From: Candidatus Limnocylindria bacterium
Lineage (GTDB): Bacteria; Chloroflexota; Limnocylindria; P2-11E
Length of the DNA: 64,000 nt
Reading direction: 5' to 3'
NCBI GenBank assembly: GCA_035651155.1
Contig: DASRGG010000021.1
Location: 339,752-403,751, forward strand
A program made the position numbers and the translations under genes. This document shows positions 28,185-64,000 of the stretch, piece by piece; within the stretch, counting starts at the first letter, position 1; each line of letters starts with the position of its first letter. A model generated the notes under the pieces. The model did no database searches. It worked only from the letters and a program-made list of their open reading frames with translations, and was not told the DNA's origin.

Positions 28185-31100
28185 TTACGGGGTCGGGACG
28201 CCGAGCAGGATGCCCTCGCTCGCGCCGGCGGCGTTGTCGATGCCGACCACGAGCAGGCCGAGCGCGGGCGTCCGCGCCCATTCGGCCGCGTCGATCGAGA
28301 CAGGCTGGTCGACCGCGGCGCCCGGCGCCACCGCGTCGAAGGCGCCGGTGCTGATGGCCGGGGTGAAGGCGTTGAACGTGGCCGACGTGGTGCCGATGTC
28401 GTCGGTGCCGTCGCGGCCCGCGAAGACGTCGATGTGGTAGCTGAACCGCGGGCTGGCCGCGCTGAGGCCGAGCCGGTTGCTGAAGACCGGGATGAACACC
28501 GTGCTGTTGTCGGTCGCGATGGCGGTGCTCGTCAGCACGAGCGAGCCGGTCGTGAGGTTGACGACGCCGGAAAGGAACACGCCGTCGCGCGAGCCGGTCC
28601 GCACGAGGCCGTTGTCCGCGCCGAACACCAGGAAGTCGTCGACGCCGTCGCCGTTGGTGTCGACGAGGATGTCGTACTCGTTCACCGCGGCGTTGGAGAA
28701 CCGCTCCCAGGTATTGACCGCGAAGACGATCAGGCGACGGGTACCGGACGGGAACGACTGGGCGCCGGCCGCGCGCAGGTCGGTCTGGCCGTGTCCGTCG
28801 TTCGGCGAGCTGATGCCCCACGCGTAGAAGTCGGCGGTGCCGGTAAAGGCGCCGCCCGCGTTGGTGAGGTGGACCGTGCCGCTCGGGTTCGACGGGCCGA
28901 ATGGCGACGAGAGCGTCGCCGCGGTGTTCGAGAGGCCGCGCGGAACGAGGTAATAGGGGACGCGAAGGGCGATGCCGTTGTTGGCCCCGTTCACGGGCGT
29001 GAGCTCGATGAAGCCCGAAGCCTCGCGGAACGCGTTCGCGTTCCCGGTCGTGGCGCCGGGCACGGTGAGGGTCACGTCGATGGACGCGGACCGCTCGCCT
29101 GAAAGACGGATCGAGCTGCGGGACAGGCTGACCGTGTGCGGCGCGCCGCTCTGCATGGTCGCCGCGGCGGTGAAGCGCGGATCGCCCGCGTCCTCCCCGT
29201 CCTCGCCGCGGAGCGCCTGCACCCTGATCCGCTTCGTCGCGGTGTAGGTCCCGAGGAACTCGTTGTACCCGAAGGACAGGCTGGCCGTGCCGCGGTCGCC
29301 CGTCGCGATCGCGCGGGTGTGCGTGGCCGCGTAGGCCTGGACGAGTCCCGCGCCGCTGGTCCGTGTCCTGTATCCGGCGATCGCCGTGGCGGAGGCCGTG
29401 TTCATGATCGCGGCCTTGACCCGCTCGGCCACGCCGTTGCCGTCCTCGTCGTCATCGCGACGCCCCTGCTTCTGGGCCTGGACGACGAGGGCCGCGACGC
29501 CGCTCACGTGCGGCGCCGCCATGGACGTACCGGAGAGACGCTCGCCCTGGTTGCCGGTGCCGACCGCGGTCGAAAGGGTCGAGACGCCGGGGGCTGCGAC
29601 GTCGGGCTTCAGGCTGCTGTCGCGCAAGCGCGGGCCGCCCGAGGAGAAGCTCGCGATCGCGCTGAAGGCGGTGTTCGTGAGGGGACTGTTCGTCAGCGTG
29701 ACGGTCCCGCCGTCGCGGGTCTTGATCGCGGCTCCGTCGGTGGAGCGGACGCCCAGGAACGGGATCGTGACGGCGTAGACCTCGCCCGTGTCCGGGTTCC
29801 CGGTGATCGGACCCTCGAAGGGCGGGTAGCTCGTCGCGTTGTTGACCATGAGCACGGCCGCGGCGCCGTGCTGCTGGCCGAAGACGGCGCGCGCGACGCG
29901 CGCGCAGGTGCCGCGCTGCGTCACGACGAGCATGCCGGCGGTGCCGGCGTACTCGTTCGGATCGCAGCCGAGGCTGATCGCGGTGTGCGCGGCGTCGGAC
30001 CAGAGGACCTTCACCGGCAGCGTCAGGCCGTCGGCGAACGTCGCGCCGTTGGCGTTGATCGACGCGAGCGTCGTGGTCCCGAGGGCGGTCCCACCGGAGA
30101 ACGCGAGGGAAGCGCCGGGGAAAGTCTTCGTCGCGTCGTTCGCCGCGACGCTGATCGTGCGGGTCGCCGTGGAGGGCGATCCCGTGATGTACGGCGCAGG
30201 GCCGGAGTTGCCGGCCGAGGCCACGACGACGACGCCCGAGCGGGCGGCGTTGTCGGACGCGACGGCCGAGGGGTCGTCCGGGCGACCGAAGGACGAGCCG
30301 AGCGACATGTTGATGACGTCCATGTCGTGATCGACGGCCCAGTCGATGGCGTCGACGGTGACGTCGGTCGCGCCGTTGCAGCCGAAGACGCGGATCGCGT
30401 AGAGGTCGGCGAGGGGCGCGACGCCGGGTCCGATGCGGAAGGTGCTGAACGGGAGCGACGTGTCATACGTGCCCCGGTAGGTCTGGCCCGATGCGGTCAC
30501 GCCGAATCCCGCGACGGTCCCGGCGACGTGGCTGCCGTGGCCGTTGCAGTCGAGCGGGTTCGGGTCGGGCTTCGGGGTCGCGATGTTCGGGTCGGGCGAG
30601 CTCGGGTTGTAGGCGTCGCCGACGAGGTCGATGCCGCCCTTCACCTTCGGCGCGTGCTTGCCGAAGAGCGCGGGATCCGCGGGCAGCGCCTCGTTCGCGT
30701 GCGCGTCGACGTAGGCCGCGGGTGTGCCGGGGCCGCCGAAGTTCGCGTGCGTGTAGTCGATGCCCGTGTCGATGACGCCGACCTTGATGCGCTCGCCGCG
30801 CAGGCCCTTCTTGCCTTCCCAGACCTGCGGCGCGCCGATGTAGGGAACGCTCGTCGAGTTGTCGCGCTCCATCCGCTGGACCGGCACGACCGCCTCGACG
30901 TTCGGGAGCGAGGCGAGGGCGCCGAGCGACCGGCGCGCGATCTCGACCTTGATGCCGTTGTAGGCCGACTGGTATTGGCCGAGGACCCGGCCGCCCGCGG
31001 CGCCGATGCTCGGGAGCAGCGGATCCTGCTTCGCCCTGAGGCTGGCCTTGACGCTGTCGCGCTCGGCGTCCGAGATCTGCTTTCCGGGCTTGGACGCCTT

Positions 31101-54445: not shown

Positions 54446-56341
54446 CTATTTCGCTGACCGCACGCCGCGCATGCGCTCTGCCGTGCGCATCGCCAGCGCC
54501 ATCACGGTCGTCATCGGATTCACGCCCGAGGCGCTCGGGAACGCGCTCGCGTCGGTCACGTAAAGACCGCGCACGCCCCAGACCCGGCCGTCGGGGTCGG
54601 CGACCGAGGACGCGCGATCCCGCCCGATGCGGCAGCTCGACATCTGATGTGCCGAGAAGAGCGTCACCCGGTTGGCGGCGATACCGCGCCGGCCGATCTC
54701 CGCCACGAGATCGTCGACCCGCGTCGCCTCGAGGTCGAGCGGCGGTGTGTGCAGAGTGAAGATGCGCCGCGCGCCGGCGGCGGCGTGGATCCGCGCGGCC
54801 TCGACCATCCCGCGCTCGAGGAGTGCGCGCTCGCTCGCGCCATTCACGTAGCTGACGAGCGGCTCCCCGTCGCGGTCGACCGTCACGCGCCCTGCATCGC
54901 GATCGCGCACGATCGCGATGAACGGCGCGACGTGGCGCGCTTCGGTCGCGCGACCCTGGTGCGCCGCCGCGCCCCACCAGGGGAACGAGGCCGCCAGGAT
55001 GCCCGGATACGCCTGCGGGACCTCGAGGCGGAAGCCGTGCGCGCCGTCGATCTCGGCGAACGCGCTCACGACGACCGACTGCGGCACGCCCGACCACACA
55101 CCGCCGAGGTCCTCGTCGTACACGCCGGAGGTGACGGACACCGGGTGCAGGTGCAGGCCGCGACCGGCCTGTCCGGACGCGATCCCCGATCGCAGCAGCA
55201 GCGCCGGTGAGTGGATCGACCCGCCCCCGAGGGCGATGAGCGGCGCGCGCACTCTCAGCTCACCGCCCTCGACCCGTGCGGTCACGCCGGTCACGGCTCC
55301 GCGCGCGGACTCGATGCGGCGCGCGTCGGTGCCGGCGAGGATCTCGGCGCCCGCGGCCGAGGCATCGGCGAGGAACGTGCGCGGCGCCGACTGCTTCGCG
55401 CCGCGACGGCAGCCGAGCGTGCAGTGCCCGCAGTCGCCGCAGCCCTTCACGTTGCGCGCGATCGTCGCCGGCTCGAGTCCGAGCGCGCTCGCGCCCCGCT
55501 CGAGGGCGGCGTTCGCGCCGTTGCGCGCGCTCTCGTCGGTGTCGACGTCGGACCGCGCCTCGACCGCCGCGTAGCACGCCGCGAGATCGTCGACGCCCGC
55601 GCGCCGCCACTCCTCGGCGACCGCCGGGCTGATGCGCAGCGAGGTGTTCCAGTTGACGACGGTACCGCCGCCGACCGCCGATCCCGCGAGCAGGGCGATG
55701 GCGCGATCCTGCGTCGCGGCGATGCCGCGATCGACGAAGAGCGCCGCGTAGCCCGCGAGCTCGCGCGAGTCAAAGGAGTCCTCGAACCGCGGCCGAGCGC
55801 GCTCGAGGATGACCACGCGCTTGCCGGCGCCCGCGAGCGTAGCGGCGGCGACGGCCCCGCCCGCGCCCGAGCCGATGACGCAGACGTCAGCCTCGATGAC
55901 CTCGCCGGCGCGCGGCACGCGCACGCGGAGCGTCGATGGCGACATGGGCGGCAGCGGCGGACGCGCGTAGCCCATCGCCGCGGCGTAGGGCGAGCCGTCG
56001 ACGCCATACGCATAGAGCAGGGTGAGGCGCTTCATGACCTGGAACGCGCGGCGCTTCAGCGCGAGCGGACTGGTCGCCCACCGCTTGAGATACGCCTCGC
56101 GCTCGTGGTGCGCGAGCGAGGAGAAGCGCGACGGACGGCCGGTGAGGATGAGATTGAGCGGCGGCGATTCGATGGTGTCGAGGAGCTGATCGAGCTCGGC
56201 GAGGAGCGCGGGCCGCCCGAGCGCGGTGACCTCGGCCCGGAGCAGCTCGGGCACGCCGAGCGCGGATGCGGAGGGAAGGCCATCGCCGCCGGGTACGAAG
56301 GTGTCGCAGATCGCGGCGAGCGCGCGTGCGCGGTCCGGCAC
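54446..56341 (-). CDS. GMC family FAD-dependent oxidoreductase with N-terminal gluconate-2-dehydrogenase-subunit-3-like extension
   Basis: ADVCVIGSGAGGAVAA (FAD GxGxxG), GMC core and C-terminal active-site region (HQMSSCRIG, GLYVTDASAFPSASGVNP). The first ~140 aa (ICDTFVPGGDGLPSASALGVPEL) resemble the small subunit family fused in frame. Confidence 0.75.
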   Translation of the reverse strand: MPDRARALAAICDTFVPGGDGLPSASALGVPELLRAEVTALGRPALLAELDQLLDTIESPPLNLILTGRPSRFSSLAHHEREAYLKRWATSPLALKRRAFQVMKRLTLLYAYGVDGSPYAAAMGYARPPLPPMSPSTLRVRVPRAGEVIEADVCVIGSGAGGAVAAATLAGAGKRVVILERARPRFEDSFDSRELAGYAALFVDRGIAATQDRAIALLAGSAVGGGTVVNWNTSLRISPAVAEEWRRAGVDDLAACYAAVEARSDVDTDESARNGANAALERGASALGLEPATIARNVKGCGDCGHCTLGCRRGAKQSAPRTFLADASAAGAEILAGTDARRIESARGAVTGVTARVEGGELRVRAPLIALGGGSIHSPALLLRSGIASGQAGRGLHLHPVSVTSGVYDEDLGGVWSGVPQSVVVSAFAEIDGAHGFRLEVPQAYPGILAASFPWWGAAAHQGRATEARHVAPFIAIVRDRDAGRVTVDRDGEPLVSYVNGASERALLERGMVEAARIHAAAGARRIFTLHTPPLDLEATRVDDLVAEIGRRGIAANRVTLFSAHQMSSCRIGRDRASSVADPDGRVWGVRGLYVTDASAFPSASGVNPMTTVMALAMRTAERMRGVRSAK

Positions 56342-56371: not shown

Positions 56372-56531
56372 CCTACTTCTTGACGGTGCGCCGCGCGACG
56401 CCGCCGTACACGGTCGGACCGTCGAGCCTCGCCCACGCCGCGTCGGCCTTCGTCTTGTCCGCGTACACGACGACGGTGTCCTCGTTGGCGCGCTCGTCCC
56501 ACGCGGTGACGACGAACACGACATCGGCCAC
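56372..56531 (-). CDS. Small hypothetical protein (~52 aa) with strong RBS
   Basis: Alternative frame to the track ORF: GGAGGTAATCAT-GTG, then ADVVFVVTAWDERANEDTVVVYADKTKADAAWARLDGPTVYGGVARRTVKK with balanced composition. Coordinates are +/-2 nt. Confidence 0.3.
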
Positions 56532-56586
56532 ATGATTACCTCCGAGACATCAGAACGCCGGCAACCGGCCGGCGTTCAGTGCGCTG

Positions 56587-56659
56587 AGCGGAAGACGGGT
56601 CTCGAACCCGCGACCTCGTCCTTGGCAAGGACGCGTTCTACCAACTGAACTACTTCCGC
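56587..56659 (-). tRNA. tRNA-Gly (anticodon GCC)
   Basis: GCGGAAG/CTTCCGC acceptor, anticodon stem CGTCC/GGACG with loop TTGCCAA, T-arm GCGGG-TTCGAGA-CCCGT. Confidence 0.85.
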
Positions 56660-56687
56660 ATGCAGGCGAGACGCGACGCGACCCCAA

Positions 56688-56921
56688 TCATAAAACCTTG
56701 GGACGACCGACGCGCGCCGCGTATCGCTTCGGCGAACGGACGCGCAAAGCAGTCACACGTTTGAGATCCCGGATGCTGACGTATGCCTCGGGGTCACCCG
56801 CCCGCCTGGCCCGCGCCACTTTGCCCGCGGCTATCAGGCGATAGAGCGTTGCCCGCGACAGGCCGAACTGCCGCAGCGCGGCCCTGACCGTGAGCCAATT
56901 CCTTGTATCACGTTGTATCAT
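56688..56921 (-). CDS. AlpA/excisionase-family HTH DNA-binding protein
   Basis: 77 aa; RAALRQFGLSRATLYRLIAAGKVARARRAG is a phage-excisionase/AlpA-type HTH_17. Confidence 0.6.
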   Translation of the reverse strand: MIQRDTRNWLTVRAALRQFGLSRATLYRLIAAGKVARARRAGDPEAYVSIRDLKRVTALRVRSPKRYAARVGRPKVL

Positions 56922-56932
56922 GTTGTCTCAGT
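56903..56932. repeat. Three tandem decamers TTGTATCACG / TTGTATCATG / TTGTCTCAGT spanning the start codon of the AlpA-like gene
   Basis: Read directly: ccTTGTATCAcgTTGTATCAtgTTGTCTCAgt. Copy 2 contains the ATG (reverse strand). Confidence 0.5.
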
Positions 56933-56962
56933 CGAAACCTCTAGCCATTTTCCGTCTTCGCG

Positions 56963-57271
56963 GTGCAAGCGGCAACCGATAGCGAATCGGAGAATCTACT
57001 GAAGAACACGACGGCCCAGGGCGATGTCACGGAGTGGCAGGTCGCGGCGGCGCTCATGCGCCAGGGCCACAAATTGCTTCGTCCGCTCTCGTCAGCCACT
57101 CGCTACGACCTCCTGATCGATCACGAGGATGGCAGGTGCACGCGCGTCCAGTGCAAGACTGGCGTCTTGCGGAACGGTTGCGTCGTATTCCGCCTCTACA
57201 GCGTCAGCGGGCACAATGGCGGGTACCACTTAGCCTCATCGCATGGCACGTCGAACAGGAGAGCAAGAGCG
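56963..57271 (+). pseudogene. PD-(D/E)XK nuclease-like N-terminal fragment fused in frame to the downstream VOC gene
   Basis: GDVTEWQVAAALMRQGHKLLRPLSSATRYDLLIDHEDGRCTRVQCKT has the E...YDLI...RVQVKT spacing of small Hjc/endonuclease-like PD-(D/E)XK proteins. It runs without a stop into the VOC gene, which has its own RBS and ATG at 57272. Confidence 0.35.
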
Positions 57272-57700
57272 ATGACCACCAAGCTGAACGTCACCTCGGT
57301 CAAGGTCCTCGACCAGCACGAGGCGCTCGACTTCTACGTGAACAAGCTCGGCCTCGAGAAGGCCCAGGACATCAGGCAGGGGCCCTTCCGCTGGCTGACG
57401 GTGCGGTTCCCGGGCGACGAGGTCGAGATCTTCCTCGAGGAGCCAGGACCGCCTCTTCACGACGAGGCGACCGCCGCGCAGCTGCGGGAGCTCATCGCCA
57501 AGGGCGCCATGAGCTCGCTCGTTTTCTACTCGGACGACGTACGGGGTCTTTACGAGACGCTGCAGGCGCGCGGCGTGAGCGACTTCACCCAGGAGCCGAT
57601 CGAGCACGCCTACGGGACCGACATGGGACTCCGCGATCCCTTCGGCAACGCGATCCGGGTCCTCCAGCCGCCGAAGTCCCGGCAGAAAGCGACGGTGTGA
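57272..57700 (+). CDS. VOC family protein (glyoxalase/bleomycin resistance fold)
   Basis: MTTKLNVTSVKVLDQHEALDFYVNKLGLEK...FRWLTV...IFLEE...FYSDDVRGLYETLQARGV...DPFGN is a paired beta-alpha-beta-beta-beta module pattern; AGGAG RBS upstream. Confidence 0.75.
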   Translation: MTTKLNVTSVKVLDQHEALDFYVNKLGLEKAQDIRQGPFRWLTVRFPGDEVEIFLEEPGPPLHDEATAAQLRELIAKGAMSSLVFYSDDVRGLYETLQARGVSDFTQEPIEHAYGTDMGLRDPFGNAIRVLQPPKSRQKATV

Positions 57701-57702
57701 CG

Positions 57703-58161
57703 ATGCCCGCGAAGAAGACCGCGACAAAGACCGGTGCCAAGCGCGAGCGCGGGTCGGGCCTCACCGCCGAGGAGAAGGCCGCCATGCGGGAGACGCTCGC
57801 GGACGAGAAGGCGAGAGCGAAGGGCGTCGAGGGCGAGAAGCTGCTTCTCCAGAAGATCGCCGCGATGAAGGAGCCCGACCGCGGCATGGCAAAGCGCATC
57901 CACGCGATCGTGAAGGCGAATGCTCCGAGCCTCACGCCAACTACCTGGTACGGGATGCCGGCGTATTCGAAGAACGGCAAGGCCGTCCTCTTCTTCCAGG
58001 ACGCTGCCAAGTTCAAAGCGCGCTACGCGACGCTGGGCTTCAACGACATCGCGACGCTGGACGACGGAGAGATGTGGCCGACGTCGTTCGCGCTCAAGGA
58101 GATGAACGCGGCGACCGAGGCGAAGATCGCGGCGCTCGTGAAGAAGGCGGTGCGGTCCTAG
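57703..58161 (+). CDS. DUF1801 domain protein (YdhG-like)
   Basis: 152 aa; Lys-rich N-terminus, then KRIHAIVKANAPSLTPTTWYGMPAYSKNGKAVLFF typical of DUF1801. Confidence 0.6.
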   Translation: MPAKKTATKTGAKRERGSGLTAEEKAAMRETLADEKARAKGVEGEKLLLQKIAAMKEPDRGMAKRIHAIVKANAPSLTPTTWYGMPAYSKNGKAVLFFQDAAKFKARYATLGFNDIATLDDGEMWPTSFALKEMNAATEAKIAALVKKAVRS

Positions 58162-58543
58162 AACGCGTCTTCGCGACGTTGTGCGCGACGGCGGCCTTCA
58201 CGATCACCTTGAGCGCCCGCTCATCGAGCTTCTCGTTCTCAGAGACGTCGATCGCCCGCGACTTGCCCAAGAGCTGGGCATTGAAGAGCTTCTTCGGGTC
58301 CGGAAGGCTCGAGCCCGCCGGGAACGAGAGCCGCACTCGCTCCTTGAGGACGACCCCGATGCACACTATCCCGTCGTGCGACCAGACGGCGGAGCCGAGC
58401 GGATCGCTGGGTCGCTTCCACTTCACGTCCTCCGCAATGTCGGGGTCCGCGTCGTGGACGATCTTTCGGAGCCTCGCCAGCGTCGCGCCGCGCCGACCGG
58501 GCGTCTTCGCGATCAGCGCGTCGACCGGGCCCGCTCGTGTCAC
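58158..58543 (-). CDS. DUF1801 domain protein (second, convergent copy)
   Basis: VDALIAKTPGRRGATLARLRKIVHDADPDIAEDVKWKRPSDPLGSAVWSHDGIVCIGVVLKERVRLSFPAG. Likely GTG start; stops of the two DUF1801 genes overlap tail-to-tail by 2 nt. Confidence 0.5.
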
Positions 58544-58567
58544 GGGAGCGTCACCGAAACGACACTG

Positions 58568-58615
58568 TGCCGAGGGCCAGGATCGAACTGGCGACACATG
58601 GTTCTTCAGACCATG
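58568..58615 (-). other. tRNA-like fragment (anticodon arm with GAA, variable loop, T-arm, 3' acceptor strand; D-arm absent)
   Basis: Reverse strand: CATGGT-CTGAAGA-ACCATG, TGTC, GCCAG-TTCGATC-CTGGC, CCTCGGC-A. The 5' side has only GCCGA and no D-arm, so it is a pseudo-tRNA or att remnant, not a functional tRNA-Phe. Confidence 0.35.
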
Positions 58616-58722
58616 CGTCTCGGATTCGGCCAGAACGCTAGCAAATCGACGACGGGGCGCACGACGACGCATTGTCCAGCAACGAATTGTCCGACGAGCG
58701 TCGCGCGCTCCATGCCGCCTTG

Positions 58723-59268
58723 TCAGCCTGATTTCTCGATCTGCGCGATCGCGTTCTTCGCCATCTCGTTCAACGTGTCCACCGCCTCTTCGAGTGCCTG
58801 GCGCTTCTCGGTTGGCTTCGCAGTCGTGTCGCCCGCCTTGGCGTCGTTGAACGCGAGCGCGTATTGGTTGAAGGCAACAAAGACCTTCTGGTACTGGTCG
58901 ACGAACTGCTGCGAGTCGGTCTCGAGCGCGAGCTGGGCGCGCGCCTCGTTCACACCCTTCGACCCCTCCTGGAGCATGGCCGTGAGGCGCTTGTTCTTCG
59001 CGTCGTCGGTCTCGCCGCCATAGCCGAAGACCATGCCGACGGAGACGGACTGCATCGACCACGAGCCGAGGAGGAGTGGCTGCAGTGCAGCGCGCATGCG
59101 CGCGAGCTTGCCATCGCGCACCAAACGCCGGTCGCGGCGAGTGTCGCGCCGCTCCTCGAAGTAGGCCGCGAGCCAGAAGCCCGCGAGCGCGCCGAGCGCT
59201 GGACCGATGAGCGGCCACGCGGAAGCGATCCACCCCGTGACCGTCGAGATCAGCGCTGCAATGTCCAT
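58723..59268 (-). CDS. Small membrane-anchored hypothetical protein, third gene of the pAgo operon
   Basis: 181 aa; one N-terminal TM (AALISTVTGWIASAWPLIGPALGALAGFWLAAYF), then a soluble helical domain. ATG lies 10 nt downstream of the pAgo stop, same strand. Confidence 0.5.
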   Translation of the reverse strand: MDIAALISTVTGWIASAWPLIGPALGALAGFWLAAYFEERRDTRRDRRLVRDGKLARMRAALQPLLLGSWSMQSVSVGMVFGYGGETDDAKNKRLTAMLQEGSKGVNEARAQLALETDSQQFVDQYQKVFVAFNQYALAFNDAKAGDTTAKPTEKRQALEEAVDTLNEMAKNAIAQIEKSG

Positions 59269-59278
59269 CTTCGCAAGA

Positions 59279-60778
59279 TCAGATGTAGAACTTGAACTTG
59301 GCCTTGCGGTCCTTGACGTTCGGGTTGGCGACGAGGATCTCCCCCACCGCGTCTGAGAATCCGACGGTGACGGGCTCGACCTCGCCCAGGCGACACGCGT
59401 TGTAGTTCAGCTTGGTCAGACCAAAGATGTCCGATACCACCTGATCGAGGTCAGCCTCGCCGTGCTGCACATCGATCTGGAGCGGCAGTGGCGTCTCCCA
59501 CCCGTCGTACGTTCCGAGGCGCGGCTTGTAACCCGTCGTCCAGAGGAACGCGGTTCGGTCCGAGACGCGCCAGTACGTACCGCGGACCACGGGAAGATGA
59601 CCCTCGCGGAAGAGACGCACGTCGAAACGTTCCTGACGGACACGAACGCCGATGAGGCGCACGCCCTCCGGGCAGGCCTCCTGGAAGCCCGCGAACTCGT
59701 CGGCGTTCAGGCCCGACCTCGCGTGCAGGAACAGCTCCGTGAGCGGCTGGCCACCGAGCTCCTTGTAGGTGTCCAGCGCGCCGGTCAGGAGATCGCGCGC
59801 GCCGTCGTAGCTCAGGTGGTACTGGTTGCGCTCGGGCGAGTACCAGGGCCCGAACTCGCCCATGAAGACGATGCCGTCGCCACTGTCGAGGAACATCTGA
59901 GCGGCGCACGCGGCCACAGGGCTATCTGAACTCGGATCACGCCGGCGGTAGGCCAGTCCGAGGTAGCAAACACCCGGGCGCGCCGTGCTCAAGCGCCATG
60001 GCTTCCCGCCGGCCTTGTAGTAGAGCGCGACACCGAGGTTCCACGCGCGGTCGCACAGCGGCGTCAGGCTGCGCTCGCCGAACTTGTACTCGTCTGACAG
60101 TCGCAGAGTGGACTCGCGCACGATCTGGATCGGAATGCCGTACTTCATCGCACGCGCCTTGATCTGCCGTCTGAAGTCGACGGAGTACAGGAACACGTCG
60201 GGGCTCGTGTCATCGAACAGTCCCGTCTGGCCCGCCTTGCGGACGCGAACGTCCTTGGCCGCCATGCGCTCACCGGAACCGAACGGCACGCGCGAGAGCG
60301 GGCGGCAGTTCTTGTACACGAGGTCGGGAACGACGCACACGATCACATCGACGGGGTCGTCGTGACGCTCGAAGGCGGCGATCGCGTCCAGGTAGCGCTC
60401 CACGACCGCCGCGGCGCGCTTGTGCTCGTCCTTCTGGATGGCCTCGGCGAGGAGCGCGTCCTCATCGACGATGCGCTCGAGCGTCGGCTCTTCGGGAAGG
60501 ACGCAGCCGAAGGCGGGCTCGAAGCCGGGGAACATCGGCCAGAGCGCGGCGCTCCGACCCTCGGGCGGCATCGCGGCACTTTGCAGCCGCTTGGTCAGCG
60601 CCTTGAACGCATCCGTGCCGCGTGGCGTGCCGACGAGGCCCCACGAGACGTTGCGTCGATGCCCCGGCATGTCCGCGTCGAACGCGCCGAAGATGCTCAG
60701 GCCGTCGCGCGGATCCGAGACCGGCTGCGTGTAGCGGAACTCCAGGGGTGGCTCTGGGAGCATCCGAAGATCGATCAC
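59279..60778 (-). CDS. Short prokaryotic Argonaute (MID-PIWI, catalytically inactive), SPARTA-type
   Basis: 499 aa. Near-colinear to the remembered SPARTA short pAgo: DPRDGLSIFG, PMFPGFEPAFGC, YKNCRP, YYKAGGKPWRL, RPGVCYLGLAYRRR, AACAAQMFLDSGDGIVFMGEFGPWYSPE, LTKLNYNACRLGEVEPVTVGFSDAVGEIL, terminal KFKFYI. No DEDX catalytic tetrad. GTG start overlaps the TIR-APAZ stop (GTGA). Confidence 0.9.
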   Translation of the reverse strand: MIDLRMLPEPPLEFRYTQPVSDPRDGLSIFGAFDADMPGHRRNVSWGLVGTPRGTDAFKALTKRLQSAAMPPEGRSAALWPMFPGFEPAFGCVLPEEPTLERIVDEDALLAEAIQKDEHKRAAAVVERYLDAIAAFERHDDPVDVIVCVVPDLVYKNCRPLSRVPFGSGERMAAKDVRVRKAGQTGLFDDTSPDVFLYSVDFRRQIKARAMKYGIPIQIVRESTLRLSDEYKFGERSLTPLCDRAWNLGVALYYKAGGKPWRLSTARPGVCYLGLAYRRRDPSSDSPVAACAAQMFLDSGDGIVFMGEFGPWYSPERNQYHLSYDGARDLLTGALDTYKELGGQPLTELFLHARSGLNADEFAGFQEACPEGVRLIGVRVRQERFDVRLFREGHLPVVRGTYWRVSDRTAFLWTTGYKPRLGTYDGWETPLPLQIDVQHGEADLDQVVSDIFGLTKLNYNACRLGEVEPVTVGFSDAVGEILVANPNVKDRKAKFKFYI

Positions 60779-62124
60779 GTGGTCTCCTCCAGCTCCTCGT
60801 CCCCCACGCCAGGCGTCACGTCCGTCTCGTCGAGCTCCTCCTCGTCGTTCTCGACGGGAAGGGGACCGGCTTCTTCCTCATTGATGCCGTCGGGCGCGGT
60901 GACCGTAAGCGGGATCGCGCGGATGGCCAGGCGACTCTGCGCACGCGAGGTGAGCACGATCTCGCCTTGAGCGTCGGCGAGGAAGGCGCAGCTTCCGAGC
61001 TGGCGGCTCAGCCACTCGTAGTTCCACCAGTCCTTGCACAGGCGCTTCCGCCGGCGGACGAGCTTCACGCCCTGGAGCGGAGTGCCATTGAGGTCCGCGA
61101 GGTATACGCGGTTGCGGAGCTGGATCATCGGCGTCCCGTAGCGGAAGAGCGCCGGTCGGAACTCGACGGCGAGGTGATAGCGGAAGCGCTCGACCCCGTT
61201 CGTGGTCCGCGCGGCGCGCTCGCCGACGGCCTTCACGTGCGTCTTTTCCCCGTCCCATCTCGTGAAGCGCAGTCGGTCGCCGGGGACGAGGCCGCTCGGG
61301 AAATAGACATACTCCTCGTTGGCCGACTCTCTGAGGCCCTTCTGAACGCAGTGGCTGCGCATGCCCTCCTTTAGAAGGACGGTAACGATGTCGCGCGCGA
61401 TCGTCCGCTGCTCGCGATCGTCGTTCTCGAGCCAGGGGATCTCTTCGACCTTGTCGACCTCGACGCCCTCGGGCGGGCCCTCGAACGCGCCGACCACGTA
61501 GTCGTTCTCGGCCCAGTACGTCCAGCTCGAGGCGATCTCCGGTGAGAGCTTCTCATGCAGCGTGATGCGGAGGACGCTGCCGGGTATGTCGGTGATGGGA
61601 AGCAGGTTCGTCCAGAGGCGCTCGGGCCGGCCCGACAGCCGCTCGCGTTCGTGCATGTACTCACGAACGGAGTCGCGCGCCGGCATGAACGTGCGCGGCG
61701 CGTCGACTGAGGTTAGTTTCTTCAGGAGCTGAACGAGGCCGTGAGCCCAGCTCGTGTGGAACGGGATGTATGTGAGATCCGAAAGCTGCCACGGCAGCTC
61801 GTGCGAGGGGAGTGCCTCGACGTTGAGCGGGATGATGAACTCCTGCTTCCTGGCCCGACCGATGTTGAGGGCGATCGTGCGTTCCTTGAGCGGGTTGTCC
61901 TTCTCCTTGGACGCCCGCGAAATGAGCGAGAGCATCCGGAAGGTGCGCTCGTGGAGCGCGCGCTCGATATCCCTGGGGTACGACTCTCCACCGAGGAGCT
62001 TCACGCGATCGCACCACACGCTGTAGCCCTCGCCCGAGAGCTTTAGCGTGAGCCACTCCGCGAGCGCGGCATCCTCGATCGCGTAGTTGATGAACAGGTG
62101 GTCGCGCTCCAGGGCCTCGCCCAC
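60775..62124 (-). CDS. TIR-APAZ protein (SPARTA NADase partner of short pAgo)
   Basis: 449 aa. N-terminal TIR: LFINYAIEDAALAEWLTLKLSGEGYSVWCD, with the conserved catalytic Glu in NPLKERTIAL. APAZ region with KDWWNYEWLSRQLGSCAFLADAQGEIVL and an acidic C-terminal tail. GGAGG RBS 5 nt before the GTG. Confidence 0.9.
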   Translation of the reverse strand: MGEALERDHLFINYAIEDAALAEWLTLKLSGEGYSVWCDRVKLLGGESYPRDIERALHERTFRMLSLISRASKEKDNPLKERTIALNIGRARKQEFIIPLNVEALPSHELPWQLSDLTYIPFHTSWAHGLVQLLKKLTSVDAPRTFMPARDSVREYMHERERLSGRPERLWTNLLPITDIPGSVLRITLHEKLSPEIASSWTYWAENDYVVGAFEGPPEGVEVDKVEEIPWLENDDREQRTIARDIVTVLLKEGMRSHCVQKGLRESANEEYVYFPSGLVPGDRLRFTRWDGEKTHVKAVGERAARTTNGVERFRYHLAVEFRPALFRYGTPMIQLRNRVYLADLNGTPLQGVKLVRRRKRLCKDWWNYEWLSRQLGSCAFLADAQGEIVLTSRAQSRLAIRAIPLTVTAPDGINEEEAGPLPVENDEEELDETDVTPGVGDEELEETT

Positions 62125-62254
62125 GTCCCCTCCGTCGACGGTCGAACTTACGTTCTATCGTAGGTCGGTCGGGTCATCCGAGTAAAGAGACTGTCAAGCG
62201 ATAATTGAGCTTACCGCTAGACTCCAGCCCGCGTGAGCCTCTCCAGTTCTTTCG

Positions 62255-63913
62255 ATGCCAGCGTCGCGGACTAAGAAGCCAACCGCGTCGCCTGGACGAT
62301 CCCCGCGCATCGCGGCGCTCACGGTCTTCCTCCTCCGCCGCGAGATCGAAGACGCGAGGCAGGCACTTGGCGGACGTATCGCCGAGGAGTTTGGGGAAGT
62401 CGAGCTCCGACGGCTGCCGATCGACGCCCGCCTATTCGTGCGTCGCAGCGTCGTCCGCCACCCGTGGTGGGAGTCGTTTTTCGCGAGCGTGACGCGCGAA
62501 CCGCTGGTCGTCAAGGCATCGACCGCTGGCGCGATCCTCTTCGTCACGGTTGCGAAGCAGTTGTTCGCGTTCACCTTTGGCACCGGCCGCTTCGCCCTGG
62601 ACCCGTCGAGTTACGAGCGTGACTTCGGACTGCGCGTGACCCTCAATGCCGTTGACCCGCGGGCGCTGCGCAGTATCGACATGCAGACCGTTGAGGAACT
62701 CACCCTCTTCACGCAGCGACAGGCATCGCGCAGCTCCGGCCTCGAGGTCTTCCAACTCGACGAGATCCGCGACATGCTCCGCGGCGTCGTCGGTCAACCC
62801 AAGGACCCGAGTCTCGCGCAGCTCCTCGCGGGTTCCGACCGGCTAGCGCTGCGTGCGCGTGTCAGGCTGACCGACCTGGCCACGCTATGCGAGCGTCTCC
62901 AAGAGCTCTACGGCTCGAATGTCTACAAGGACGCCTTCGGCTTCATCGATCAAATGCGACGCGTCACTGAACCCGATTTGCTCGCGTCGCTCGACGAGCG
63001 GCTGGTTCAGGCGCTTGAAGAACCCGAAGACGCCACGCTTCACATGGCTCCGCCAGAGCCGATCGACTGGGAAGACTTCGGCGGGTACCGCTACGAGCCG
63101 ATCGACAAGGATGCTCCGCCACGTGGCGACCTCGACGTGGTCGAACTGGTCGAGACCTTCGAGGAAGCGCGCAAGCGTTCGCTGGAGCTGGACGATCTGA
63201 GGAAGCGCGTGCGCGTGGTGAGCCTCTCGGCCGCAACCGGTCAGCCGGCGCATCACTGGTCTCTCTACGACACGATGGTGACGGAGTTCGCCGTCGGCGA
63301 TCAACGCTACGTGCTCAGCGGCGGTGACTGGTTCGAAGTCAGTGCGACCTTCGCCGAGCAAACTGCAGCGGCAGTCAACGCGCTGCCCACCTCGGCGATC
63401 GCCTTTCCTAGTTCACCGAAGGGTGAGGTAGAGGCCCAATACCTCACACGGGCCGTGCCGCTGCTCGAGGCGGGCGAGGGTATCGGTTACGCGCTGATGG
63501 ACCAGAAGCTGGTCGCGTGCACCGGCGCCCCCTCGCGGATCGAGGTGTGTGATCTGCTCAACGAGCTCAAGCAATTCATCCACGTGAAGCGCAGGACGGC
63601 GTCAGCCACGCTTAGCCACCTCTTCGCTCAAGGCACGACTTCGGCGACGGCGTTCATCGGGGATCGGGGGTTCCGCCTGGCAGCACGTGACGAACTACCC
63701 GCGGCGTGGGATGCCGCCGCGATCTTTCCCGAGGACCAGCCCATCGCGGGCGAATACACGGTGACGTACGCCGTGATCGCGCGAGGCAACGGGCCCCTCG
63801 GGGAGACTCTTCCTTTCTTCAGCCAGGTCAACCTGACGCATGCGTCCCGCATCCTGCGCACGATGGGCTTTGCCGTCGAACTCGCGCACATCGAGGAGAC
63901 ACCGGCGCCGTAA
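62255..63913 (+). CDS. Large hypothetical protein, TIGR04141/DUF6119-like ('sporadically distributed' defence-island protein), possible PD-(D/E)XK-like C-terminal core
   Basis: 552 aa, divergent from the SPARTA operon with an AT-richer 130-nt spacer. C-terminal GDWFE...RIEVCDLLNELKQFIHVKR resembles a D...E-x-K nuclease motif. Family assignment is from memory only. Confidence 0.45.
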   Translation: MPASRTKKPTASPGRSPRIAALTVFLLRREIEDARQALGGRIAEEFGEVELRRLPIDARLFVRRSVVRHPWWESFFASVTREPLVVKASTAGAILFVTVAKQLFAFTFGTGRFALDPSSYERDFGLRVTLNAVDPRALRSIDMQTVEELTLFTQRQASRSSGLEVFQLDEIRDMLRGVVGQPKDPSLAQLLAGSDRLALRARVRLTDLATLCERLQELYGSNVYKDAFGFIDQMRRVTEPDLLASLDERLVQALEEPEDATLHMAPPEPIDWEDFGGYRYEPIDKDAPPRGDLDVVELVETFEEARKRSLELDDLRKRVRVVSLSAATGQPAHHWSLYDTMVTEFAVGDQRYVLSGGDWFEVSATFAEQTAAAVNALPTSAIAFPSSPKGEVEAQYLTRAVPLLEAGEGIGYALMDQKLVACTGAPSRIEVCDLLNELKQFIHVKRRTASATLSHLFAQGTTSATAFIGDRGFRLAARDELPAAWDAAAIFPEDQPIAGEYTVTYAVIARGNGPLGETLPFFSQVNLTHASRILRTMGFAVELAHIEETPAP

Positions 63914-64000
63914 GTGGTCGCCTTCGTCCACCTGCAAGCGGTCGGCGGTGGCGAAGCTGTTAGCCCGCTCGGCGAAGGCGAGGGGCACGAGGGCTCGGAT

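What the first reader, a model, noticed from the sequence alone, without database searches (positions are those of the whole stretch)
56587..64000. Accessory island beside tRNA-Gly with mosaic and decayed cargo
From tRNA-Gly(GCC) rightwards, gene content switches from core metabolism to an AlpA/excisionase-like regulator and mosaic cargo. The cargo includes a nuclease-like fragment fused in frame to a VOC gene, two convergent DUF1801 paralogues whose stops overlap, a D-arm-less pseudo-tRNA with a GAA anticodon arm, then SPARTA and the DUF6119-like gene. No integrase is visible, and the island lies on the 5' side of the tRNA, which is not the classical 3'-end integration geometry. The true boundary or integrase may lie beyond the window end.
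Basis: partly seen in the sequence, partly recalled or inferred. Interest (0 to 1): 0.55.

Follow-up and report, generated by a model that had tools for sequence, protein, structure and literature searches.

The report
SPARTA defence island inserted in tRNA-Phe
A mobile island of at least 18.7 kb, carrying the SPARTA defence system, sits in a tRNA-Phe gene of an uncultured soil Chloroflexota bacterium; the genes between it and tRNA-Gly are ordinary conserved chromosome, so this is a textbook tRNA-targeted island whose anchor was misassigned.

Summary

**What is chromosome.** Related Candidatus Limnocylindria contigs share the block tRNA-Gly(-) | small HTH | PDDEXK_5 | VOC | DUF1801a | DUF1801b | tRNA-Phe(-). 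Protein identities there (about 60-84%) are in the same range as flanking core genes. So 56.66-58.56 kb is chromosome, not cargo.

**What the "pseudo-tRNA" is.** Positions 58565-58614 match, base for base, nucleotides 27-73 plus CAG of that lineage's genuine tRNA-Phe(GAA). It is the displaced 3' part of a tRNA-Phe split by site-specific integration. Relatives have an intact tRNA-Phe directly upstream of DUF1801b, which is the empty site.

**The island.**
- It starts at 58615 and runs at least to 77.3 kb on the source contig.
- A divergent tyrosine integrase lies at 63960-65024, so it starts 41 bases before the window end.
- SPARTA and DUF6119 lie between the tRNA scar and the integrase.
- Further right are a Cre-like 694-aa recombinase, a serine-recombinase remnant and a PLD-like gene cut by an IS630-type transposase.

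**Verdict.** New member of a known kind; modest interest.

The parts
56586..56659 (-). tRNA-Gly(GCC). A chromosomal neighbour, not the integration target.
   Evidence: ARAGORN and Rfam at 69 bits. No copy of its 3' part occurs anywhere in the 77.3 kb examined. It lies beside tRNA-Phe in relatives L071, L072, L073, L090, L096 and L112.
56688..56921 (-). 77-aa HTH ORF (HTH_17/excisionase-like, below thresholds). Part of a conserved chromosomal HTH/PDDEXK_5 pair.
   Evidence: Positional counterparts of about 60-72 aa lie between tRNA-Gly and PDDEXK_5 in L004, L112 and L154. The ORF is absent from L073, L090 and L136.
56963..57271 (+). PDDEXK_5 nuclease gene that has lost its 3' third. It now runs in frame into the VOC gene.
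   Evidence: Pfam PF11645, 54.8 bits, profile positions 2-78 of 138. A full-length orthologue of about 136 aa is in L154 and a frameshifted one in L004. The gene is convergent with tRNA-Phe in L073, L096, L112, L127 and L136.
57272..57700 (+). VOC/glyoxalase gene (142 aa from ATG 57272). Chromosomal.
   Evidence: Pfam Glyoxalase, 44.7 bits. Protein identity is 74-80% in L072, L090, L095 and L111. Nucleotide identity to L005 is 79.6%, against 77.5% for the core GMC gene. GC3 is 0.92.
57703..58161 (+). DUF1801a. Chromosomal.
   Evidence: Pfam DUF1801, 26.3 bits against a cut-off of 27.2. Orthologues at 70-82% in L005, L090, L095, L106 and L111. GC3 is 0.92.
58094..58543 (-). DUF1801b. This is the gene that lies directly downstream of tRNA-Phe in relatives. 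Here its C-terminal tail is extended and overlaps DUF1801a by 68 nt.
   Evidence: Pfam DUF1801, 54.8 bits. Orthologues at 76-84% in L086, L095, L106, L110 and L154, where the alignments stop at about residue 129-136 of 149.
58565..58614 (-). 3' part of tRNA-Phe(GAA): nucleotides 27-73 plus CAG. This is the attachment-site repeat that marks the left end of the island.
   Evidence: 50/50 identity to intact tRNA-Phe genes in at least 10 metagenome loci. Identity breaks exactly at 58614|58615. The junction and island-side arm are homologous in L154. The Logan contig begins at 58585, which is 58615 minus 30.
58615..58722 (.). Island-side arm next to the attachment site.
   Evidence: 80.9% nucleotide identity to L154 over 58565-58691. 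No match in any empty-site relative.
58723..59268 (-). 181-aa ORF with a hydrophobic N-terminus, 10 nt downstream of the pAgo gene. Variable cargo.
   Evidence: No family in Pfam, PADLOC or NCBIfam. L154 has an unrelated 158-aa ORF in this position.
59279..60778 (-). Short prokaryotic Argonaute (MID-PIWI) of SPARTA.
   Evidence: PADLOC pAgo class I, 562 bits. Full-length match to solved SPARTA pAgos 8qlo, 8ifk and 8fex, E = 1e-105 to 1e-109. 86% identical to the L154 orthologue.
60775..62124 (-). TIR-APAZ partner of SPARTA. It overlaps the pAgo start by 4 nt.
   Evidence: Pfam TIR_2, 64 bits. PADLOC Aga_TIR, 231 bits. PDB SPARTA TIR-APAZ chains at E = 1e-24. Glu81 aligns with the catalytic Glu77 (PMC9097488 read).
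62255..63913 (+). DUF6119/TIGR04141 protein. Cargo of unknown function and a candidate defence gene.
   Evidence: Pfam 439 bits and NCBIfam 435 bits. Linked to SPARTA and the integrase again in L154/L155. Embedded in type I restriction-modification operons in L157 and L158. The model is confident (pLDDT 87.8) but has no significant structural match.
63960..64000 (-). 3' end of the island's tyrosine-integrase gene. The whole gene is 63960-65024 on the source contig.
   Evidence: Pfam Phage_integrase 25.5 bits against a cut-off of 27.1. PHROG integrase E = 2e-9. R..K..SxxR..W..Y pattern. Homologues lie next to tRNA-Phe or its fragment in L136, L091 and L154.

Best explanation
The 56.6-64 kb stretch is two different things.

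**(1) 56.66-58.56 kb is chromosome.** It is a small, rearrangement-prone but conserved segment between two tRNA genes of Candidatus Limnocylindria (Chloroflexota): tRNA-Gly(-), a small HTH gene, PDDEXK_5 (here truncated by a deletion and left in frame with the next gene), VOC, DUF1801a, DUF1801b and, ancestrally, tRNA-Phe(-).

**(2) From 58615 rightwards is an integrative island of at least 18.7 kb.** It inserted into tRNA-Phe(GAA) by tyrosine-recombinase site-specific recombination, with the crossover block starting at the anticodon stem.
- The element brought its own copy of tRNA nucleotides 27-76, so the gene should be restored at the far end. That is inferred; the far end was not seen.
- The displaced original 3' part stayed at 58565-58614, abutting DUF1801b. 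That is shown.
- The integrase (63960-65024) is codirectional with this scar.
- The 5.3 kb between scar and integrase is a cargo slot. It holds an intact-looking SPARTA operon (TIR-APAZ plus short pAgo; known from experiments on other SPARTA systems to deplete NAD(P)+ on RNA-guided detection of invading DNA), DUF6119 and a variable small ORF.
- Further right come more mobile-element genes: a serine-recombinase remnant, a sigma-70-like protein, cI-like HTH genes, an HTH_17 gene with a 694-aa Cre-like recombinase, and a PLD-like gene cut by an IS630-type transposase, where the assemblies end.

**Not resolved.** Whether this is one element or two in tandem, and whether it can still excise.
For: **Empty sites.**
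- L095 and L106 carry an intact tRNA-Phe directly upstream of DUF1801b (78-82% aa). DUF1801b is convergent with DUF1801a, and in L095 VOC follows.
- L090 has tRNA-Gly, PDDEXK_5, VOC, DUF1801a and tRNA-Phe in order.
- L073 and L096 have tRNA-Gly, PDDEXK_5 and tRNA-Phe within 700 bp.

**The scar.**
- 58565-58614 is 50/50 identical to these tRNA-Phe genes. Identity ends sharply at tRNA nucleotide 27.
- At least 9 other metagenome loci carry only such 3' fragments (L066 second copy, L069, L081, L086, L109, L113, L128, L129, L136).
- Occupied/empty pairs share the same downstream flank: L066 versus L099/L112/L135, and L136 versus L068.

**The same island elsewhere.** L154 has tRNA-Gly, PDDEXK_5, DUF1801b, a Phe fragment with the same junction, SPARTA (86% and 73%), DUF6119 (74%) and the integrase (82%).

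**Integrase-to-site link.** Homologues at 31-34% identity lie 85-130 nt from, and codirectional with, the tRNA-Phe sequence in L136 and L091.

**Extent and composition.**
- Nothing right of 58155 matches the GMC-anchored relatives.
- G+C is 0.654 against 0.711. GC3 is mostly 0.69-0.89 against 0.88-0.96 in core genes.
- The source contig extends the island to 77.3 kb.

**Assembly break.** A k=31 Logan contig, identical to the window, starts exactly 30 nt inside the repeat (k=31 from PMC12424806).
Against: - **No second attachment-site copy or intact tRNA-Phe was seen.** Neither is present in the 77.3 kb available. Both assemblies end in an IS630-type transposase, so the right border is unseen.
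- **The integrase is weakly supported as a family member.** It falls just below Pfam's cut-off and has Ser where HxxR usually has His.
- **Integrase position is unusual.** It lies 5.3 kb from the scar rather than next to a tRNA.
- **A second recombinase is present.** The Cre-like 694-aa protein could belong to a separate element.
- **The Logan branch point is not specific to this genome.** Other species in the same sample share the same tRNA-Phe sequence and could cause it.
- **Relative L005 is uninformative on the site.** It lacks both DUF1801b and tRNA-Phe at this position and is locally rearranged.
- **The L154 island may be inherited, not independently acquired.** Its divergence (73-86% aa) resembles that of the flank (DUF1801b 78.5%), so shared occupancy may reflect old vertical inheritance rather than mobility.
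Confidence: 0.85

Rival explanations
1. One island is anchored at tRNA-Gly, and everything from 56.66 kb rightwards (HTH, PDDEXK-VOC, both DUF1801 genes, the pseudo-tRNA, SPARTA, DUF6119) is its mosaic, decayed cargo.
For: - G+C drops right at tRNA-Gly.
- An excisionase-like HTH lies next to the tRNA.
- The HTH and the PDDEXK fragment have low GC3, 0.69-0.77.
- The neighbourhood of tRNA-Gly differs among relatives found through the GMC gene: L004 and L005 carry other genes or an inversion there.
Against: - The HTH/PDDEXK_5/VOC/DUF1801a/DUF1801b order is conserved between tRNA-Gly and tRNA-Phe in many related contigs. Protein identities (about 60-84%) are in the same range as flanking core genes.
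- VOC and DUF1801a have core-like GC3 of 0.92.
- There is no repeat of the tRNA-Gly 3' part.
- The region lies on the 5' side of tRNA-Gly.
- The tRNA-Phe fragment gives a precise alternative junction.
Confidence: 0.04
2. The tRNA-like piece is a tRNA-Phe gene that decayed in place by an internal deletion of the D arm. The SPARTA region is simply old variable chromosome, not an integrated element.
For: - Five bases upstream (GCCGA, 58630-58626) could pair with the 3' acceptor strand, giving the 'D-arm-less tRNA' appearance.
- No second repeat was found.
Against: - The upstream GCCGA is not conserved in L154, which has the same junction.
- Identity to real tRNA-Phe is perfect over 50 nt and then stops abruptly at nucleotide 27.
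- The same kind of fragment recurs in at least 9 other loci, with matched empty sites.
- A tyrosine integrase of a family found next to such fragments lies in the adjoining DNA.
- A genome needs a working tRNA-Phe, and in relatives the gene sits at this locus.
Confidence: 0.04
3. The integration model is the same, but the island is an old, fixed and no longer mobile remnant. It would have been inherited vertically since before the window genome and the L154 genome split.
For: - The same site and the same junction occur in L154. Island divergence (73-86% aa) resembles that of the flanking DUF1801b (78.5%).
- Decay is visible: a serine-recombinase fragment and a PLD-like gene cut by an IS.
- The integrase has Ser in place of the HxxR His.
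- No relatives occur in viral contigs.
Against: - The non-functional scar is still 100% identical to functional tRNA-Phe over 50 nt.
- In L154 the scar carries a compensatory pair change in the T stem (GCCGG/CCGGC). That is the signature of a sequence copied from a functional tRNA after divergence.
- Many contigs of the lineage have empty sites.
- Cargo next to the scar differs between the two islands: a 181-aa ORF here, an unrelated 158-aa ORF in L154.
Confidence: 0.4
4. The low-G+C region is two elements side by side or nested. One is a SPARTA/DUF6119/Int354 element at tRNA-Phe. The other is built around HTH_17, the 694-aa Cre-like recombinase and a 121-aa protein.
For: - The HTH_17/p694/p121 module, often with the sigma-70-like gene, recurs at 39-57% aa identity in other contigs. 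There it carries different cargo and has no Int354 homologue.
- p694 has the tyrosine-recombinase fold: Foldseek against Cre gives E = 1.5e-5, probability 1.00. R353, K390, H493, R496, W520 and Y530 are invariant.
Against: - No internal repeat or boundary was found between them.
- L154 shares at least p82 and p102 beyond the integrase, but its contig ends there.
- G+C is uniform across the region.
Confidence: 0.45

Closest known systems
tRNA-gene-targeted genomic islands and integrative elements with tyrosine integrases (P4-like and related islands; the anticodon-loop class of tRNA sublocations is recalled from my own knowledge of Williams 2002, not checked here)
   Same: - Insertion is into a tRNA gene, and a displaced 3' tRNA segment of about 50 nt is left as a direct-repeat scar.
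- Related genomes have empty sites.
- Base composition deviates.
- The island carries a tyrosine recombinase, an excisionase-like HTH and accessory defence cargo.
   Different: - The integrase lies near the distal scar, with 5.3 kb of cargo in between, not next to the restored tRNA.
- The integrase is very divergent: below Pfam's cut-off, no PDB sequence match, and Ser in place of the HxxR His.
- The far end was not seen.
- The host is an uncultured Chloroflexota lineage in which such elements are, as far as I know, not described.
SPARTA (short prokaryotic Argonaute with TIR-APAZ; Koopal et al. 2022, PMC9097488)
   Same: - A two-gene operon with TIR-APAZ upstream of, and overlapping, a short pAgo of about 500 aa.
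- Full-length similarity to solved SPARTA complexes.
- The catalytic TIR glutamate is conserved.
   Different: - The TIR-APAZ is distant in sequence from the solved ones (E = 1e-24, mostly over the TIR domain).
- A third small ORF follows the pAgo, but it is not conserved in L154.
- Activity was not tested.
Defence-gene hotspots of integrated mobile elements, such as those in P2/P4-like prophages and satellites (my own knowledge, not checked here)
   Same: Variable defence cargo sits in a fixed slot of an integrated element, here between the integrase and the attachment site. A small ORF is swapped between two related islands.
   Different: No phage or satellite genes were detected and there are no relatives in IMG/VR. 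Only two islands of this type were compared.
Cre/XerH-type tyrosine recombinases (for the 694-aa protein beyond the window)
   Same: The predicted fold matches, and the R-K-H-R-W-Y catalytic pattern is invariant in the family.
   Different: It is twice the size of Cre, has no Pfam, PHROG or PADLOC hit, and the model is of moderate confidence (pLDDT 69). Its target site is unknown.

Membership tests
tRNA-integrated genomic island (tyrosine-integrase type) | Inserted within a tRNA gene, with a duplicated 3' tRNA segment at the distal end | tested here: met
   58565-58614 equals nucleotides 27-73 plus CAG of the lineage's tRNA-Phe, with a sharp break at nucleotide 27.
tRNA-integrated genomic island (tyrosine-integrase type) | A second repeat, the restored intact tRNA, at the other end | tested here: inconclusive
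   Absent from the 77.3 kb available. Both assemblies stop in an IS630-type transposase.
tRNA-integrated genomic island (tyrosine-integrase type) | An empty site in related genomes | tested here: met
   L095 and L106 have an intact tRNA-Phe directly followed by DUF1801b. L090, L111, L072 and L073 show the same block without an island.
tRNA-integrated genomic island (tyrosine-integrase type) | Encodes a tyrosine recombinase with the catalytic R-K-H-R-H/W-Y residues | tested here: inconclusive
   Pfam gives 25.5 bits against a cut-off of 27.1 and PHROG integrase gives E = 2e-9. R, K, R, W and Y candidates are present but Ser replaces the first His. Homologues sit next to tRNA-Phe sequences in L136, L091 and L154.
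tRNA-integrated genomic island (tyrosine-integrase type) | Composition differs from the host core | tested here: met
   G+C is 0.654 against 0.711. GC3 is about 0.69-0.89 against 0.88-0.96. The difference is modest.
tRNA-integrated genomic island (tyrosine-integrase type) | Excision or integration activity | not testable with these tools
   Needs read-level junction analysis or an experiment.
SPARTA | A short pAgo (MID-PIWI only, about 500 aa) related to characterised SPARTA pAgos | tested here: met
   PADLOC pAgo class I at 562 bits, full length. PDB 8qlo/8ifk/8fex at E = 1e-105 to 1e-109 over residues 3-499.
SPARTA | An adjacent TIR-APAZ gene in the same operon | tested here: met
   60775-62124 is on the same strand with a 4-nt overlap. 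TIR_2 scores 64 bits, PADLOC Aga_TIR-PNTD scores 231 bits, and PDB TIR-APAZ chains reach E = 1e-24 with a second matched stretch in the APAZ part.
SPARTA | The catalytic glutamate of the TIR NADase | tested here: met
   Glu81 aligns with Glu77 of the solved chain 8ifk_A. Glu77 is catalytic according to PMC9097488.
SPARTA | RNA-guided, DNA-triggered NAD(P)+ depletion | not testable with these tools
   A biochemical property.
DUF6119 / TIGR04141 | A full-length match to the family model above its cut-off | tested here: met
   PF19614 at 439.5 bits (cut-off 27), profile positions 1-523 of 524. TIGR04141 at 434.7 bits.
PD-(D/E)XK nuclease (for the DUF6119 C-terminal domain) | The alpha-beta-beta-beta-alpha-beta core, with an acidic residue at strand 2 and (D/E)xK in strand 3 | tested here: inconclusive

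The most novel reading that the evidence does not exclude
DUF6119/TIGR04141 is a stand-alone anti-plasmid or anti-phage defence protein, perhaps a nuclease with a divergent PD-(D/E)XK-like C-terminal domain. It travels in defence slots of mobile elements.
- Here it stays linked to SPARTA and the integrase in two diverged islands.
- Elsewhere it is embedded between hsdS and hsdR of type I restriction-modification operons.

Alongside this, Limnocylindria would host a previously undescribed family of tRNA-Phe-targeting elements, together with a novel 700-aa Cre-like recombinase module.
Probability: 0.35. Interest if true: 0.5.

Novelty: new member of a known kind. Interest (0 to 1): 0.3.

Why it matters
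The mechanism is textbook, so the value is mostly corrective. The apparent 'non-classical' island beside tRNA-Gly resolves into a classical insertion into the neighbouring tRNA-Phe, and the 'pseudo-tRNA' is the integration scar.

Three results are modestly useful:
- It documents SPARTA as cargo of an integrative element in an uncultured soil Chloroflexota class.
- It defines a recurrent tRNA-Phe integration hotspot in that lineage, with matched empty and occupied sites.
- It flags two uncharacterised families worth testing: DUF6119 as a defence candidate, and a large Cre-like recombinase with no database model.

Tried and rejected
**Second attachment-site copy.**
- I searched for a second copy of the tRNA-Phe block or an intact tRNA-Phe in L001, L002, L050 and the 77.3-kb extended sequence. 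I used ARAGORN, a 28-nt pattern with up to 3 mismatches, and blastn-short. None was found.
- General direct-repeat search in the island gave only chance-level pairs.

**Reaching the right border.**
- A homologue search with the partial 533-aa protein did not return the protein itself.
- The 694-aa protein did return itself and gave the contig to its end, but the contig ends in an IS.
- The JGI cluster member P0020 is not on record.
- A metagenome scan with the 694-aa protein found nothing.
- The 417-kb NCBI contig could not be fetched.

**Synteny through the GMC oxidoreductase.** This gave only two relatives with tRNA-Gly nearby, both rearranged. The decisive synteny came from the tRNA-Phe pattern scan.

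**tRNA-Gly as target.** Rejected. There is no repeat of its 3' part and the geometry is wrong.

**A phage origin.** Nothing supports it. PHROG hits are limited to integrases and a sigma factor, and there are no relatives in viral contigs.

**DUF6119 function.**
- There is no PDB sequence hit with a single sequence or a profile.
- Foldseek found nothing significant in PDB or BFVD.
- The literature search found no characterisation.

**The two DUF1801 genes as recent paralogues.** Rejected.

Full report
**Observation.**
- ARAGORN and Rfam confirm tRNA-Gly(GCC) at 56586-56659 on the minus strand.
- G+C falls from 0.71 upstream to about 0.65 from there to the window end.
  - a 77-aa HTH ORF with only sub-threshold HTH_17, AbiEi_4 and excisionase matches;
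  - a 245-aa ORF that joins the first 78 of 138 profile positions of PDDEXK_5 in frame to a complete VOC domain;
  - two convergent DUF1801 genes;
  - a 181-aa ORF with no family;
  - a short pAgo and a TIR-APAZ;
  - a full-length DUF6119/TIGR04141 protein.
- SPARTA is solid. The pAgo matches solved SPARTA pAgos over its whole length (E = 1e-109). The TIR-APAZ matches their partners and keeps the catalytic glutamate: Glu81 aligns with Glu77 (PMC9097488).
- Two details need correcting. The DUF1801 genes show no pairwise similarity. Their stops do not coincide: the minus-strand ORF reads 68 nt into the other gene's 3' end, with a tail absent from its orthologues.

**Getting beyond the window.** An exact-protein look-up of DUF6119 placed the window on a 141-kb ENA contig and on an 18.6-kb Logan contig. 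A second look-up through the 694-aa protein gave the ENA contig to its end. Together these give 77,290 bases in window coordinates.
- A 354-aa tyrosine-integrase-like gene lies at 63960-65024 on the minus strand, so it begins 41 bases before the window end. It scores Pfam 25.5 bits against a cut-off of 27.1 and PHROG integrase E = 2e-9, and it has an R..K..SxxR..W..Y pattern.
- Low G+C continues to the contig end.
- The rest contains:
  - small ORFs and a 174-aa fragment of a serine recombinase;
  - a 409-aa sigma-70-like protein;
  - HTH regulators;
  - an HTH_17 gene followed by a 694-aa protein and a 121-aa protein;
  - a 533-aa protein followed by a gene with two HKD motifs (PLD-like), which is cut by an IS630-type DDE_3 transposase.
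- Both assemblies stop in that transposase. No tRNA-Phe and no second copy of the tRNA-like piece occurs anywhere in the 77.3 kb.

**What the pseudo-tRNA is.** On the minus strand, 58614-58565 reads as anticodon stem-loop (GAA), variable loop GTGTC, T arm, 3' acceptor strand and discriminator A, then CAG.
- I scanned public metagenome contigs for its last 30 bases and 80 loci were returned.
- About 18 of them carry an intact tRNA-Phe whose nucleotides 27-73 plus CAG are identical to the window piece.
- At least 9 carry only a 3' fragment that begins in the anticodon stem or loop.
- Matched pairs exist. L066 has the tRNA, then a fragment 896 bp downstream, then the flank that directly follows the intact tRNA in L099, L112 and L135. 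L136 (fragment) and L068 (intact) also share a flank.
- tRNA-Phe is therefore a recurrent integration site in this lineage, and the window piece is such a scar. Identity ends exactly between 58614 and 58615.

**Which side is chromosome.** tblastn of the window proteins against these loci settles it.
- In L095 and L106 an intact tRNA-Phe is followed directly by DUF1801b (78-82%). DUF1801b is convergent with DUF1801a (70-74%), and in L095 VOC follows (76%).
- L090 has tRNA-Gly, PDDEXK_5, VOC (80%), DUF1801a (73%) and tRNA-Phe in order.
- L073 and L096 have tRNA-Gly, PDDEXK_5 and tRNA-Phe within 700 bp. L072 and L112 are variants of the same block.
- A small HTH ORF lies between tRNA-Gly and PDDEXK_5 in L004, L112 and L154.
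- The GMC-anchored relative L005 has VOC and DUF1801a at 79.6% nucleotide identity, against 77.5% for the core GMC gene.
- VOC and DUF1801a have core-like GC3 of 0.92.

So 56.66-58.56 kb is a conserved, if flexible, segment between the two tRNA genes. Within it, the PDDEXK_5 gene has lost its 3' third and has been left in frame with VOC. That is local decay, not island mosaicism. The island begins at 58615.

**A second copy of the island.** The closest DUF6119 homologue with context is P0024 (74%). It lies on L154, where the order is: tRNA-Gly, HTH, PDDEXK_5, other genes, DUF1801b (78.5%), a tRNA-Phe fragment with the same junction and a homologous island-side arm, an unrelated 158-aa ORF, pAgo (86%), TIR-APAZ (73%), DUF6119 (74%), integrase (82%) and further shared small ORFs.
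- The L154 scar differs from the window's by a compensatory pair in the T stem. That suggests it was copied from a functional tRNA of that host after the lineages diverged.
- More distant integrase homologues (31-34%) lie 85-130 nt from a tRNA-Phe sequence, and codirectional with it, in L136 and L091.
- This ties the integrase family to the site. It also implies that in the window and in L154 the SPARTA/DUF6119 cargo sits in a slot between the integrase and the attachment site.

**An assembly-graph clue.** The Logan contig is identical to the window sequence and starts at 58585, which is 30 nt inside the 50-nt block. Logan graphs use k=31 (PMC12424806). A branch at 58614|58615 is what a second sequence sharing the block would produce. 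It is consistent with an intact tRNA-Phe in that sample, but other species with the same tRNA could also cause it.

**Mechanism.**
- *Shown:* the junction, the empty sites, the integrase family link and the cargo content.
- *Inferred:* the element carried its own copy of tRNA nucleotides 27-76, recombined with the chromosomal gene through its tyrosine integrase, and restored a working tRNA-Phe at the unseen far end.
- *Inferred from experiments on other SPARTA systems:* SPARTA depletes NAD(P)+ when guide RNA-bound pAgo detects invading, highly transcribed DNA.
- *Unresolved:* whether the region is one element or two, and whether it is still mobile. The 694-aa protein has the tyrosine-recombinase fold (Foldseek against Cre, E = 1.5e-5, with invariant R-K-H-R-W-Y). 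Its HTH_17/p694/p121 module recurs with different cargo in other contigs.

**DUF6119.**
- It is uncharacterised in the literature held.
- A 50-sequence alignment gives a confident model (pLDDT 87.8). The model has no significant match in PDB or BFVD and there are no PDB sequence relatives.
- Invariant E393, D433, K445 and Q459 sit on a helix-strand-strand-strand-helix segment that resembles a PD-(D/E)XK core. The best weak Foldseek hits include two such nucleases. This is only a lead.
- Its contexts are defence-like. It is linked to SPARTA and the integrase twice (window and L154/L155). It lies directly after hsdS within type I restriction-modification loci in L157 and L158. It lies beside JAB and ThiF genes in L156. 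It is solitary in L153.

**Verdict.** The anchor, the left border and half of the cargo list are wrong. What is there is a classical tRNA-targeted integrative island carrying a known defence system in a little-studied phylum. It is a new member of a known kind and of modest interest. Two uncharacterised protein families are the most promising leads.

Noticed in passing
Source contig beyond the window: extended coordinates 69433-72193 (L050 9690-12450): An HTH_17 gene, a 694-aa protein and a 121-aa protein form a module conserved at 39-57% aa identity in other soil contigs (L051, L053, L055, L056), where it carries different cargo (AbiEii/Fic, a methyltransferase). The 694-aa protein has no Pfam, PHROG or PADLOC hit. 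It folds like Cre/XerH and has invariant R353, K390, H493, R496, W520 and Y530. It looks like an undescribed family of large tyrosine recombinases.
   Followed up: partly
window 62255-63913; loci L157 7001-8611 and L158 7001-8587: DUF6119 homologues lie directly after hsdS, with overlapping or abutting starts, inside type I restriction-modification loci. Their neighbours include GmrSD, Fic, DUF4062 and SduA_C genes. This is a typical position for embedded defence genes.
   Followed up: partly
Extended coordinates 73233-76540 (L050 13490-16798): A 533-541-aa protein with no family is followed, stop-to-start, by an ORF with two HKD motifs (PLDc_2 at 27.5 bits; PADLOC ZacB at E = 8e-13). The automatic gene calls missed this ORF. 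Its 3' end is interrupted by an IS630-type DDE_3 transposase (76551-77288), where both assemblies end.
   Followed up: partly
window 55454-55532 (+) and 28855-28946 (+): ARAGORN calls a tRNA-Ala(CGC) inside the GMC oxidoreductase ORF and a 92-nt tRNA-Glu(TTC). Rfam supports neither at its gathering score, and the first is not found even at E <= 1. Both are probably false positives.
   Followed up: partly
window 58723-59268 (-): A 181-aa ORF with a hydrophobic N-terminus lies 10 nt downstream of the SPARTA pAgo on the same strand. It has no family, and the L154 island has an unrelated 158-aa ORF at the same spot. This looks like a swappable slot next to the attachment site.
   Followed up: partly
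L066 4480-4553 and 5407-5451: An intact tRNA-Phe and a 3' fragment lie in direct orientation only 896 bp apart. The downstream flank equals the empty sites in L099, L112 and L135. This is either a very small insert or the remnant of a deleted element.
   Followed up: no
L005 5300-8300 versus window 56373-58161: In relative L005 the segment holding tRNA-Gly and the 52-aa ORF is inverted relative to the GMC gene. An AI-2E transporter gene and an AraC-like gene are present there. DUF1801b and tRNA-Phe are missing, and DUF1801a abuts an ABC transporter. The interval between the two tRNAs is a rearrangement hotspot.
   Followed up: partly
Extended coordinates 67269-68498 (L050 7526-8755) and 66726-67250: A 409-aa sigma-70-like protein (Sigma70_r2; PHROG sigma factor at E = 9e-33; PADLOC MzaA-like) lies next to a 174-aa fragment that holds only the 'Recombinase' domain of a large serine recombinase. 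The sigma-like gene recurs with the p694 module in L051 and L055.
   Followed up: no
L091 959-2069: A homologue of the island integrase (31% identity) lies about 125 nt upstream of a complete tRNA-Phe and is codirectional with it. In this relative the element-side repeat may span the whole tRNA, or the element may carry its own tRNA-Phe.
   Followed up: no
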